A stretch of 39,105 nucleotides of DNA from a virus (lineage: Duplodnaviria; Heunggongvirae; Uroviricota; Caudoviricetes). The stretch lies in IMG/VR virus record IMGVR_UViG_2609459852_000013, one strand, 5' to 3'. Shown in pieces: positions 12,001 through 15,000 of this stretch. Every line of letters begins with the position of its first letter. Position 1 is the stretch's first letter. Made by a program: the position numbers.

Positions 12001-15000
12001 ACTGGCTGTTACGCCACATTAAATCCTGCCAGTGGCCTCATGGTGACTACCATCACAGCGAAACCGTCATACATCGTTACGGTACCGGTGCAATGGTGTT
12101 GTGCTGGCACTGCGACAACCAGCTGCGTGACCAGACTTCCGAATCACTCGAGCAACTTGCTCATCAAAACCTGTCAGCATGGATGATTGACGTCATACGC
12201 CATGCAATGAATGGCACGCAGGAGCGCGAATTATCGCTGGCTGAATTATCCTGGTGGGCGGTCTGCAATCAGGTGGCGGACGCGCTACCAGAGGCAGCAT
12301 TACGTCGTTCTCTGGGGTTACGTGCGGAAAAAATTCGCTCAGTATACCGCGAGAGCGACATCGTGCCGGGAGAGCAGAGTGCCACCAGCATGCTGAAGCA
12401 GCGCACAAAAAATATTGCGCCGCTGCTTCACGCCCACCAGCAAACCCCGCCACAGGAAAAGACGGTGGTCAGCATTGCCGTTGAGCCGGAGTCTCCGGAA
12501 TCTTTCATGAAACGACCTAAACGTCGCCGCTGGCTTAACGAGAAATACACGCGCTGGGTTAAGACACAGCCGTGTGCATGTTGTGGAAAGCCTGCTGATG
12601 ATCCCCACCACTTGATAGGCCACGGTCAGGGTGGAATGGGTACTAAAGCGCATGACCTCTTTGTGTTGCCTTTGTGCAGAAAACATCACGACGAGCTGCA
12701 TGCGGATACCGTGGCATTTGAAGAGAAGTATGGCTCCCAGCTGGAGCTGATATTTCGTTTTATCGATCGTGCGCTGGCAATAGGCGTATTGGTGTAAGTG
12801 GAGAACGAGCATGAACCTTGAAGCCTTACCAAAATATTACTCCCCAAAATCTCCAAAATTGAGCGATGACGCACCGGCGACAGGCTCGGGGGGTTTAACA
12901 ATTACGGATGTGATGGCTGCGCAGGGGATGGTGCAGTCGAAAGCACCGCTTGGGTTTGCCTTATTCCTGGCAAAAGTTGGTGTTCAGGATACTCAGTTTG
13001 CTATTGAAGGTCTGCTCAATTACGCGATGGCACTGGATAACCCGACATTGAACAAATTGAGTGAAGAAACCCGGTTACAGATCATCCCTTACCTTGTGAA
13101 TTTTGCCTTTGCTGATTATTCCAGATCTGTGGCAAGTAAGGCTTGCTGTGGGCATTGTGCAGGTACGGGATTTCATCATGTATTATGTGAAGTGGTGAAA
13201 TATTCCAGTGGTGGGGACACTGTCATCAAAGAAGAGTGGGAGAAGAAACTATGTCAGCATTGTAATGGCAAGGGAAAAGTCAGCACAGCGTGCAGAGGGT
13301 GTAAGGGTAAAGGCATTGCCCTAGATGAAAAAAGAACCCGATTTCATGGTACACCAGTTTATAAGGTCTGTGGGCGTTGTAATGGACATCGGTTTAGCCG
13401 TTTACCGACCACGCTGGCACGACGTTATGTCCAGAAGCTGGTTCCCGGTTTAACTGATTATCAGTGGTACAAAGGATATGCAGATGTCATTGATAAACTG
13501 GTAACAAAGTGCTGGCAGGAAGAATCGTACGCTGAGACCCAGCTGAGAAAAGTGACGAGATAAATGATTTTCGCGGAAGATGTCTACATGATGCTTGCAT
13601 TTTTCACAAAACATGGATAGAGTTATCTCAATAAGGGGGGTGTGTGCCTGCCGTTAAAGGGGGCTTCGACCTGCGATAATTAAAGGTACAGTTCTGGATG
13701 AAAAAGCCCCGACTTCATGGTAAGCCAGTTTGCAAGATTTGCAGGCGTTGTAATGGAAAGGAGTTAGCCGTTTACTGGCCACGCTGATGTGGCTGCATAT
13801 CCAGGAGTTGGTAACAGATAAGGCTGATTAGATAATTCTTTGCTACATAACAGCAAGGCATCATATAGAATATTATAACTTTGACTGTTAGCATGGATTA
13901 TACCCGCTTCCCTTGTTGGCCTTCCTTCTGTCGATGATTCTATCCATAATGAACCAGTAAATTTTGACATTTTATATGTTGCGAATTCTTTGGCGTTAAC
14001 TGGAATTTTTATGTCATTTAAGTCCATTGTGTATCCATCTTTTTTTATTTTATTGGCAAAGCAAATCTTTATATCGGAGATTGATGCATCGACACTTATC
14101 TGTGAATAGCTATCTGGTGAATTAAAGATAAACAAACAAAAAAATAACATATGAAAAAACAATTTCACAAATGCCTTCCTGTTTTGTAAATATATTGCTA
14201 AGTTTCTTGGTGATTTATATGTTACAAGGCAAGAGATGTTGCTGGATGATAAAAAAATAACAGTAAGGTTATTTGTGGTTGGCGGGCTGTCTTTGTTTGG
14301 TTAGATTTAGCTCTGGATACCGATAGTTAACATTATATGCCATAATTAGTATTGTATGCGGATATTGTATAATGGTTATTACCTCAGTTTCCCAGACTGA
14401 TGATGTGGGTTCGATTCCCGCTATCCGCTCAGGGCACTTATCAAGGTATATATACCTTACAGCGCTGGCGTTTTTTTTCGCGGGGATGGTTTCAGATATC
14501 TCATTGCTCCCTCGAACTATAACAGAGACCAGTTATAGTTTCAGCGCGGTTTTTTTCAATATAAGGATGGCGCATTGTTGGAAGAGAGTTTCGGGAATTA
14601 TCCTGGAGAGACAGATGATGCGCCATCCTTATGTTGTATAAAAATGTGAGATAAGCCGAAGAGCAGGACTGTCAGGTATACATATAAATAGACGAAAGCT
14701 GTAACGTATTTATTCGTTGATTAATATGTCTACAAAAGACATCCGATATCTCGAATTCTATTTAATACGTTGAGTGCTATTTGAGTTTTTACCGCCCTCC
14801 CGGGCGGTTTTTTTGTGAGCTTAAAAAAGAATTGCACATTGGATTTGTAAATAATCTAATGTTGTTTAACAAAAGATGAAAGCAGCGCTTGACTCTATTG
14901 AATTAGTATTGTTATTTCAACTATATCAATGTGTTCAGGTTGTTGCGAGAAACTATGGTTGATAAAGAATTACTCAGAAATTCTTCATTGTTTGTTGCGT

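What the first reader, a model, noticed from the sequence alone, without database searches (positions are those of the whole stretch)
14430..14830. Dense cluster of hairpins and GCGG-T(7-8) elements downstream of the tRNA-Gly-like gene
Within 400 bp there is a palindrome AAGGTATATATACCTT, two CAGCGC(T)GG + T7-8 motifs (about 14459 and 14542), a 9-bp inverted repeat AACTATAAC/GTTATAGTT, a 15-bp perfect inverted repeat with a 42-nt loop (14561-14632), and a strong terminator (14791-14814). No credible ORF; the track ORF 14372..14641 overlaps the tRNA and the repeats. This could be a structured ncRNA, a stack of terminators insulating the moron region, or the remnant of a small mobile or recombination element.
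Basis: seen in the sequence. Interest (0 to 1): 0.4.

Follow-up and report, generated by a model that had tools for sequence, protein, structure and literature searches.

The report
Structured RNA trailer of prophage tRNA-Gly
The hairpin cluster is one conserved, non-coding, about 385-base folded RNA that follows a phage tRNA-Gly gene upstream of the lysis genes in E. coli lambda-like prophages; its last third is a diverged relative of a known prophage small-RNA family, and its first two thirds match no described RNA family.

Summary
The block (14459-14814, + strand) is a conserved module of Escherichia lambdoid prophages. I found about 10 lineages at 45-60% identity. It always lies after the Q antiterminator gene, nearly always right after a T4-like tRNA-Gly, and before the lysis genes.

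Compensatory base changes and a strong G·U excess show it is a + strand RNA with three domains.
- **Domain I:** the two "CAGCGC(T)GG" motifs pair with each other (P1). P1 closes a cloverleaf-like four-way junction, followed by U7. The first T-run is only a hairpin loop. The 9-bp inverted repeat is arm P4.
- **Domain II:** the long hairpin built on the 15-bp inverted repeat.
- **Domain III plus the strong terminator:** a diverged relative of the STnc100/PasD prophage sRNA family.

There is no conserved ORF and no sign of a mobile element. The AAGGTATATATACCTT palindrome is specific to this lineage.

Most likely this is the 3' trailer of a phage tRNA unit. It would stop Q-independent transcription before the lysis genes and yield an Hfq-type sRNA. 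That function is inferred, not shown. Domains I-II match no Rfam family.

The parts
14358..14430 (+). tRNA-Gly (anticodon CCC), T4-like, with no encoded CCA. It is the upstream partner of the block in nearly all lineages.
   Evidence: ARAGORN. Rfam tRNA 58.4 bits. 84.6% identical to the tRNA-Gly of T4-type phages and 90.8% to phage SerU-LTIIb. The tRNA-Gly 3' end directly precedes the block in lineages C-H.
14443..14458 (+). Palindrome AAGGTATATATACCTT in the tRNA-to-block spacer. It is specific to this lineage and not a conserved part.
   Evidence: Present in the window. Absent at the same position in all other lineages.
14459..14557 (+). Domain I: a cloverleaf-like four-way junction.
- P1: 14462-14467 pairs with 14542-14547. 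These are the two 'CAGCGC' motifs.
- P2: GCG-U8-CGC at 14468-14481. The first T-run is its loop.
- P3: 14482-14512.
- P4: 14514-14541. This is the 9-bp inverted repeat.
- U7 tract: 14550-14556, two bases after P1.
   Evidence: The MFE fold gives this architecture in 14 of 16 homologues, against 46 of 3200 shuffles. The covariance-model alignment shows P1 96.4% paired and P2 86.6% paired. 26 of 39 pairs have compensatory changes, against 17.8 +/- 2.1 in shuffles (0/500) and 10-17 in slid controls.
14550..14643 (+). Domain II: a long, nearly perfect hairpin. Its core is the 15-bp inverted repeat 14561-14575 / 14618-14632. Its base uses the 3' end of the U7 tract. It is a candidate double-strand RNase (RNase III) site; this is inferred.
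   Evidence: Inverted repeat I1. RNAalifold helices 2-3 have 33 pairs that are 94-96% paired, 11 of them with compensatory changes.
14642..14790 (+). Domain III plus linker: a diverged STnc100/PasD-like sRNA body. The outer stem is GAGAUA 14648-14653 paired with UAUCUC 14747-14752. The inner hairpin is 14664-14744. The A/U-rich single-stranded linker is 14753-14790.
   Evidence: Model R1, built without the window sequence, hits 14642-14816 full length at 34.9 bits, E about 1e-6. The same segment in other lineages gives sub-threshold Rfam STnc100 hits of 22.9-35.4 bits, where the known PasD2 scores 41.4 and the gathering score is 47. The outer stem covaries: GAGGUG/CACCUC, GAGAUA/UAUCUC, GAGUCG/CGUCUC.
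14791..14814 (+). Intrinsic terminator: ACCGCCC-UCCC-GGGCGGU followed by a U-tract. It is the 3' end of the unit.
   Evidence: Terminator scan. Conserved in all lineages, 92.7% paired, with variable loops and one A-U to G-C exchange (helix 11).

Best explanation
The region is the non-coding 3' trailer of a phage tRNA-Gly transcription unit. It sits in the leader of the late (lysis) operon of a lambdoid prophage and is transcribed rightwards as one RNA of about 385 nt with three folded domains.

**Shown**
- The fold is conserved by compensatory changes and is specific to the + strand.
- The two 'CAGCGC' motifs form helix P1, which closes a four-way junction and is followed by a U-tract.
- The block ends in a canonical terminator.
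- Its last third belongs with the STnc100/PasD prophage sRNAs.
- For one Q type, the Q-dependent late promoter and its first terminator lie elsewhere, directly after Q.

**Inferred**
1. RNA polymerase that starts at a Q-independent promoter near the tRNA(s), or leaks from upstream, terminates partly at P1+U7 and fully at 14791-14814. The lysis genes therefore stay silent in the lysogen. Q-modified polymerase reads through.
2. The terminated transcript is processed. RNase P and RNase E release the tRNA, and the long Domain II duplex is probably cut by RNase III.
3. Domain III plus the terminator is released as an Hfq-binding, base-pairing sRNA. Its seed lies in the A/U-rich linker just upstream of the terminator, as in PasD.

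The role of the Domain I cloverleaf beyond termination is unknown.
For: **Conservation and context.** Homologous blocks of 368-396 nt occur in about 10 lineages at 45-60% identity. All lie downstream of Q and upstream of holin/lysis genes. Three unrelated Q families sit upstream (PF03589, PF06323, PF06576), so the block is not a Q-specific qut site. For the DUF1133-type Q, the roughly 60 nt after Q plus a terminator are conserved separately from the block.

**Structure.** 76 pairs are 94.6% paired. 26 pairs show compensatory changes, against 11.8 +/- 2.2 in shuffles (0/500) and 5-10 in slid controls. There are 166 G·U cells against 14 A·C cells. The Domain I cloverleaf is supported.

**sRNA relationship.** Rfam STnc100 hits fall on Domain III plus terminator in L004, L101, L002 and L095. 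The motifs CGGGAGGCACCCGRCACC and YCCAUGUGCGGGGUGG are shared with a bona fide STnc100 (79.8 bits) in L003. The window copy is recovered by a model built without it. PasD and STnc100 are Hfq-dependent sRNAs validated by Northern blot and RIL-seq, and they are encoded in the same part of lambdoid prophages (PMC8550237; bioRxiv 10.64898/2026.05.13.724894).

**Non-coding.**
Against: - No expression data exist for this locus.
- The promoter is only a consensus-level guess: TTAACA-17-TATTGT at 14327-14355, and the region has no promoter excess over shuffles.
- The window's own Domain III gives no Rfam STnc100 hit, even at E <= 10. It lacks the family's most conserved internal motifs.
- All relatives score below the Rfam gathering threshold.
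- P1+U7 is not a canonical simple-hairpin terminator. The U-tract is also predicted to pair into the base of Domain II.
- Some variants lack Domain III (SE11) or the tRNA and the P1 5' strand (lineage B). The parts are therefore separable and may not act as one unit.
Confidence: 0.6

Rival explanations
1. The block is a purely cis-acting stack of terminators, an insulator. The hairpins exist only to stop Q-independent transcription before the lysis or moron genes, and no RNA product has a function.
For: There are two conserved stem + U-tract elements (P1+U7 and 14791-14814) between the tRNA(s) and the holin genes. Other lineages carry further terminator-like hairpins just upstream of holin. 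Leaky holin expression would be harmful; this is established lambda biology, from my own knowledge.
Against: Domains II and III make up about 240 of 385 nt. They are conserved by compensatory changes but have no U-tract. Domain III is homologous to trans-acting Hfq sRNAs. A single strong terminator would be enough for insulation.
Confidence: 0.2
2. The block is a cis-acting processing and stability element of the Q-dependent late mRNA. The long Domain II duplex and the cloverleaf would direct RNase III or RNase P cleavage that separates the tRNAs from the lysis mRNA and sets lysis-gene expression or timing.
For: Domain II is a conserved duplex of about 30 bp with few mismatches. The block always lies between the tRNAs and the lysis genes.
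Against: No cleavage data exist. The block is followed by a strong terminator and often by several hundred more bases, or by moron genes, before holin. It also occurs on conjugative plasmids next to non-phage genes.
Confidence: 0.12
3. The block is a remnant of a small mobile element or a recombination site, or a set of DNA-level protein-binding palindromes (operators).
For: Palindromes and inverted repeats are dense here. The block occurs in mosaic contexts and on plasmids flanked by IS elements.
Against: - There are no terminal inverted repeats or target-site duplications.
- Orientation relative to Q and the lysis genes is fixed.
- Stems keep their pairing while their sequences change.
- G·U pairs outnumber A·C by 166 to 14, which is expected for RNA and not for DNA sites.
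- The one exact palindrome (14443-14458) is not conserved.
Confidence: 0.04
4. The block encodes one or more small proteins, for example ORF 14372..14641 or the minus-strand ORF 14501..14626.
For: Mechanical ORFs of 41-89 aa exist.
Against: The longest ORFs differ in strand, frame and position among 16 homologues. Many indels are not multiples of three. The 89-aa ORF starts inside the tRNA.
Confidence: 0.02

Closest known systems
STnc100 (Rfam RF02076) and PasD1/PasD2 (EcOnc13) prophage-encoded Hfq-dependent sRNAs
   Same: Domain III plus terminator shares the overall architecture: an outer stem closing two or three inner hairpins, then a single-stranded linker, then an intrinsic terminator. 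It shares the signature motifs in lineages B-H. It shares the location in the late region of lambdoid prophages between Q and the lysis genes (PMC8550237; bioRxiv 10.64898/2026.05.13.724894).
   Different: All block copies score below the Rfam gathering score: 22.9-35.4 bits against 47. The window copy scores nothing with the Rfam model and keeps only the outer stem, linker and terminator. STnc100 and PasD are stand-alone genes of about 170-200 nt. Upstream of PasD2 I read a sigma-70-like TTGACT box in the sequence, but no promoter mapping was done. Here the domain is the tail of a 385-nt structured unit fused to a tRNA gene, with no conserved promoter of its own.
Short PR'-tR' transcripts of lambdoid phages (lambda 6S RNA; StxS of Stx2 phages, PMC7547250)
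   Same: These are terminated non-coding RNAs in the late-operon leader. Their terminators are overridden by Q. StxS is an Hfq-binding regulatory sRNA.
   Different: The block is not next to the late promoter. For the DUF1133-type Q, the conserved promoter-proximal segment and its terminator lie directly after Q and are separate from the block. The same block follows three unrelated Q families.
tRNA 3' external transcribed spacer sRNAs such as 3'ETS-leuZ of E. coli (from my own knowledge; not tested here)
   Same: The position is the same: immediately 3' of the last tRNA of a unit, ending at that unit's terminator.
   Different: The block is several times longer and highly structured. No evidence here bears on RNase E release or sponge activity.
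Stable RNAs co-transcribed with phage tRNAs (T4 species 1/2, rnaC and rnaD) and large tRNA-adjacent prophage RNAs (GOLLD, ROOL); from my own knowledge
   Same: The block is a prophage or phage structured RNA of unknown role lying next to tRNA genes. The adjacent tRNA-Gly is T4-like.
   Different: T4-type phages match only the tRNA, not the block. There is no Rfam GOLLD or ROOL match. The block is much smaller and confined to Escherichia.

Membership tests
STnc100 / PasD sRNA family (RF02076) | Match to the Rfam covariance model at or above the gathering score (47 bits) | tested here: not met
   The window's Domain III gives no STnc100 hit at E <= 10. The same segment in relatives scores 35.4, 32.8, 28.6 and 22.9 bits. 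The accepted relative PasD2 also scores below threshold, at 41.4 bits.
STnc100 / PasD sRNA family (RF02076) | Architecture: an outer stem closing inner hairpins, then a single-stranded linker, then an intrinsic terminator with a U-tract | tested here: met
   RNAalifold helices 4-11 with compensatory changes. The window has outer stem 14648-14653 / 14747-14752, linker 14753-14790 and terminator 14791-14814.
STnc100 / PasD sRNA family (RF02076) | Signature sequence motifs (…UGGUGAAUCCCCCUGUGCGG… and …GGGAGGCACCCGGCACCAU…) | tested here: inconclusive
   The motifs are clear in lineages B-H. In the window only a weak echo remains: GACATCCGATATCTC against GGCACCCGACACCTC, 11 of 15 identical. A model built from the relatives, without the window, still recovers the window copy at 34.9 bits.
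STnc100 / PasD sRNA family (RF02076) | Expressed as a discrete, Hfq-dependent RNA | not testable with these tools
   This has been shown only for PasD in EPEC (PMC8550237). No data exist for this locus.
Rho-independent (intrinsic) terminator | G+C-rich stem, short loop, followed directly by a U-tract | tested here: met
   14791-14814 has 7 pairs (6 G-C), a 4-nt loop and T7, and it is conserved. For P1+U7 (14542-14556) the stem closes a branched junction. It is terminator-like but non-canonical, so its function is untested.
tRNA / tRNA-like gene (for Domain I) | Recognised by tRNA models (ARAGORN, Rfam RF00005), with T-loop and D-loop signatures | tested here: not met
   ARAGORN calls only 14358-14430 and the three downstream tRNAs. 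There is no tRNA hit on 14431-14830 at E <= 10. The resemblance is in topology only.
Lambdoid late promoter / qut / tR' region | Lies immediately downstream of Q and co-varies with the Q type | tested here: not met
   The same block follows three unrelated Q families. For the DUF1133-type Q, the conserved post-Q segment is distinct from the block. In the window, a reverse-strand ORF and a tRNA separate Q from the block.
PasA / PasC sRNAs | Sequence similarity to the esterase-holin intergenic region of E2348/69, with the sRNA on the antisense strand | tested here: not met
   blastn of that region against all block lineages gave only chance-level matches, E >= 0.07.

The most novel reading that the evidence does not exclude
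Domains I-II (about 14459-14643) may be a new, undescribed RNA motif of Escherichia prophages. It would be a cloverleaf-like four-way junction whose closing helix doubles as a branched terminator, fused to an RNase III-type duplex. It would act as a dedicated processing platform, or a tRNA mimic, that couples phage tRNA-Gly maturation to the release of an STnc100-type sRNA from one precursor. In this reading tRNA, cloverleaf, duplex and sRNA form one functional 'tRNA-sRNA operon' rather than a chance mosaic.
Probability: 0.25. Interest if true: 0.6.

Novelty: new variant of a known kind. Interest (0 to 1): 0.5.

Why it matters
- It replaces a list of unrelated hairpins with one conserved RNA and gives it an explicit, testable fold.
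- It extends the STnc100/PasD prophage sRNA family to diverged copies that standard Rfam annotation misses. These include copies embedded in tRNA transcription units and copies carried on conjugative plasmids.
- It defines a structured element of about 200 nt (Domains I-II) with no described family. Block relatives are found in at least 9% of complete E. coli genomes.
- If the unit is expressed in lysogens, it gives a candidate Hfq sRNA and an insulation mechanism for lysis genes in O166:H15-type diarrhoeagenic strains.
- It also corrects annotation: ORF 14372..14641 should not be called.

Tried and rejected
- **Late promoter reading.** I tested whether the conserved TAYAAT box upstream of the terminator is a late promoter, with CCCGAC as a -35 or Q-binding element. 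The spacing to CCCGAC varies from 8 to 14 nt, there is no -35, and the box lies in the sRNA-like linker. Rejected.
- **GGUCUC/GAGACC pairing.** A pairing between the P3 region and the P4 loop, as an antiterminator or pseudoknot, holds only in lineages A-D and not E-H. Not pursued.
- **Minus-strand promoter.** An extended -10 promoter in the 9-bp inverted repeat has no consistent downstream gene in other lineages.
- **Small peptide.** A conserved MMRHPYVV-like peptide at the Domain II 3' arm loses its start codon in lineage D.
- **PasA/PasC homology.** None found.
- **T4 stable RNAs.** No similarity beyond the tRNA.
- **Phage collection.** The window block has no match. A lineage C query found only two phage records, SerU-LTIIb and vB_EcoS-683R6.
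- **Species-representative genome scan.** The pattern I used fits lineages A-D only. It found just one Shigella/E. coli record, so it under-samples lineages E-H.
- **Structure-aware alignment.** MAFFT Q-INS-i was not installed. I used covariance-model realignment instead.
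Full report
**Context**

The window is a lambdoid prophage. The identical 751-bp stretch around the finding occurs in only 18 of 5426 complete E. coli genomes, including O166:H15 strains. RefSeq annotation of one of them gives this gene order:
- replication genes
- a first Q-family gene
- hokD
- DUF968
- an 'antitermination protein' (window 12811-13563; Pfam PF03589)
- a reverse-strand hypothetical ORF (13764-14168)
- tRNA-Gly (14358-14430)
- an unannotated gap, which is the finding
- two pseudogene fragments
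- tRNA-Ile2 and tRNA-Arg
- TerB and DUF3927
- holins and endolysin
- terminase

The finding therefore lies in the leader of the late (lysis) operon.

**Observation**

Every listed element is present, and the cluster is not chance. GCGNT7 occurs 5 times in the window against 0.3 expected, with 3 of the 5 in this region. The fold z-score is -6.6 on the + strand and -6.2 on the minus strand, as expected for inverted repeats. At the gathering threshold Rfam finds only the tRNAs and sok in the whole window. Nothing meaningful appears in the block even at E <= 10.

**Homologues**

A sensitive blastn of the block against E. coli genomes found 467 further genomes with a roughly 73% match to 14515-14637. 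Annotated examples show the match is always downstream of a Q gene and upstream of lysis genes. In most it comes right after a tRNA cluster that ends in tRNA-Gly.

Aligning the neighbourhoods showed that the whole stretch of about 385 nt, from the tRNA 3' end to the strong terminator, is homologous though diverged. Further lineages came from three sources:
- pattern scans of viral contigs
- two phage records, SerU-LTIIb (two copies) and vB_EcoS-683R6
- a second E. coli search, which found 435 genomes with up to 5 places per genome and some places on plasmids

In total there are about 10 lineages at 45-60% pairwise identity. Block length is conserved at 368-396 nt.

The family looks confined to Escherichia/Shigella:
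- The one scan of species-representative genomes found a single Shigella record, although its pattern fits lineages A-D only.
- All 143 plasmid hits among 72,556 plasmids are Escherichia.

**The block is not the Q-utilisation site or late promoter**

Three unrelated Q families precede it: PF03589, PF06323 and PF06576/DUF1133. Two lineages share a 94%-identical DUF1133-type Q. In both, the conserved post-Q segment of about 60 nt and a terminator lie directly after Q. They are separate from the block, which in one lineage follows immediately and in the other lies beyond an AT-rich spacer and two tRNAs.

**It is an RNA structure on the + strand**

RNAalifold on 16 representatives gives 76 pairs.

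| Measure | Observed | Shuffles | Slid controls |
|---|---|---|---|
| Cells paired | 94.6% | 91.3% | 39-50% |
| Pairs with changes on both sides | 26 | 11.8 +/- 2.2 (0/500 reach it) | 5-10 |

G·U cells outnumber A·C cells 166 to 14, so pairing is 94.6% on the + strand against 81.9% on the minus strand. No ORF is conserved.

**Anatomy in window coordinates**

*Domain I (14459-14557).* The first 'CAGCGCTGG' motif (14462-14467) pairs with the second 'CAGCGC' motif (14542-14547) to form helix P1.
- The window has G-C where most lineages have A-U at one P1 pair, and other P1 pairs vary through G·U.
- P1 closes a four-way junction with three arms: P2 (GCG-U8-CGC), P3, and P4 (the 9-bp inverted repeat).
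Lineage F replaces it with ACACAU-UAU-AUGUGU.
- P4 exists in at least four different sequences: AACUAUAAC/GUUAUAGUU, GGCUAUG/UGUAGCC, CUGUAAUGAAU/AUUUAUUACGG and CUGUAAU/GUUACAG.
- P1 is followed within 0-4 nt by U6-8 in every lineage.
- Independent MFE folds give this 'closing stem plus exactly three arms' shape in 14 of 16 sequences, against 46 of 3200 shuffles.
- After covariance-model realignment of 25 distinct copies, P1 is 96.4% paired and P2 is 86.6% paired. 26 of 39 pairs show compensatory change, against 17.8 +/- 2.1 in shuffles.
- tRNA models do not recognise this domain.

*Domain II (14550-14643).* This is the long hairpin around the 15-bp perfect repeat. It has 33 pairs, 11 of them with compensatory changes.

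*Domain III (14642-14790) plus terminator (14791-14814).* An outer stem closes inner hairpins, followed by an A/U-rich linker and a canonical terminator.

**Link to a known family**

In vB_EcoS-683R6, Domain III plus terminator gives a sub-threshold Rfam STnc100 hit of 22.9 bits. The alignment shows near-identity at UCGGGAGGCACCCGACACCUC. The same segment scores 35.4, 32.8 and 28.6 bits in three other lineages. PasD2 of EPEC E2348/69 is a validated sRNA and an accepted STnc100 relative, and it scores 41.4 against a gathering score of 47. A bona fide STnc100 (79.8 bits) lies 300 nt downstream of the block in lineage B, and its sequence makes the homology plain.

PasD and STnc100 are Hfq-dependent base-pairing sRNAs of lambdoid prophages. 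The PasD seed lies just upstream of its terminator (PMC8550237; bioRxiv 10.64898/2026.05.13.724894).

The window's own Domain III is the most diverged copy and gives no Rfam hit. However, a model built from the relatives plus STnc100 and PasD2, without the window, finds it full length at 14642-14816 with 34.9 bits. This is the only strong hit in the 39 kb.

The parts are modular:
- SE11 has Domains I and II, then the linker and terminator, but no Domain III.
- Lineage B lacks the tRNA and the P1 5' strand and carries its own terminator there.
- L101 carries a second Domain I plus an STnc100-like copy upstream of its tRNAs.

**Interpretation**

The best-supported reading is a non-coding tRNA-trailer unit. 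It both terminates Q-independent transcription ahead of the lysis genes and carries an STnc100/PasD-type sRNA at its 3' end.

The fold, its strand, its conservation, the terminator and the family relationship rest on the tool results above. Expression, processing, Hfq binding, termination at P1+U7 and any role of the cloverleaf are inferred.

Rivals are scored lower for the reasons given with each one: pure terminator stack, late-mRNA processing element, mobile-element remnant or DNA operator, and small protein.

**Novelty**

The 3' third is a diverged member or relative of a known sRNA family. Three things appear undescribed: its fusion to a T4-like tRNA-Gly, the Domain I cloverleaf whose closing helix carries the U-tract, and the Domain II duplex. 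None of these has an Rfam family, and I found no mention of them in the papers I searched. I therefore rate the finding as a new variant of a known kind, of moderate interest.

Noticed in passing
window 14358-14430: The tRNA-Gly(CCC) is T4-like. It is 84.6% identical to the tRNA-Gly of T4-type phages and 90.8% identical to that of the LT-IIb prophage SerU. It has two non-standard D-stem pairs and no encoded CCA. Relatives carry anticodon TCC and an encoded CCA.
   Followed up: partly
window 2775-2923 (- strand): This is a second, partial STnc100-like match: Rfam 29.9 bits (below the gathering score of 47), with motif GCGGUGAAUGCG…CCUGGAGGCACCAGGCGCCGCA. Model R1 also picked it up weakly.
   Followed up: partly
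window 15724-15869: A weak STnc100 match (18.6 bits, E 0.6) overlaps tRNA-Arg(TCT) and the terminator at 15843-15862. It may be only the terminator end of another sRNA-like element.
   Followed up: no
window 13681-13786 vs 13308-13416: A stretch of about 106 bp downstream of Q is 76% identical to part of the Q coding region itself. It looks like a leftover 3' fragment of a second Q gene, a recombination scar.
   Followed up: no
window 8759-9283 and 12811-13563: The prophage carries two Q-family genes: a 175-aa 'antiterminator Q family protein' and the 250-aa PF03589 Q with a DnaJ-type zinc-finger segment. Defence-like genes, hokD/sok and DUF968 lie between them.
   Followed up: no
window 13764-14168 (- strand): A 134-aa ORF with no Pfam match is inserted in reverse orientation between Q and the tRNA. 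It is probably a moron, and it is unique to this prophage type among the loci fetched.
   Followed up: no
window 14955-15440: RefSeq marks two pseudogene fragments here: a truncated hypothetical gene and a frameshifted DNA methyltransferase. So ORF 14931-15299 is probably not a gene.
   Followed up: no
L120 (plasmid NZ_CP065971.1) 3317-3767, and 143 PLSDB plasmids: A tRNA-like gene plus block Domains (I)-II-III sits on conjugative Escherichia plasmids next to a DMT transporter gene, flanked by IS elements. The unit therefore travels outside prophages.
   Followed up: partly
L094 (phage SerU-LTIIb) 1201-1665 and 3107-3560; L101 2068-2435 and 2847-3208: These are tandem duplications of the unit within one late region. 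SerU-LTIIb has two tRNA-Gly + block copies, each before a holin gene. L101 has an extra Domain I plus an STnc100-like copy upstream of its tRNAs.
   Followed up: partly
window 19075-19085 (-) and 24541-24551 (+): Two further GCGGTTTTTTT sites lie outside the finding. They are probably ordinary terminators.
   Followed up: no
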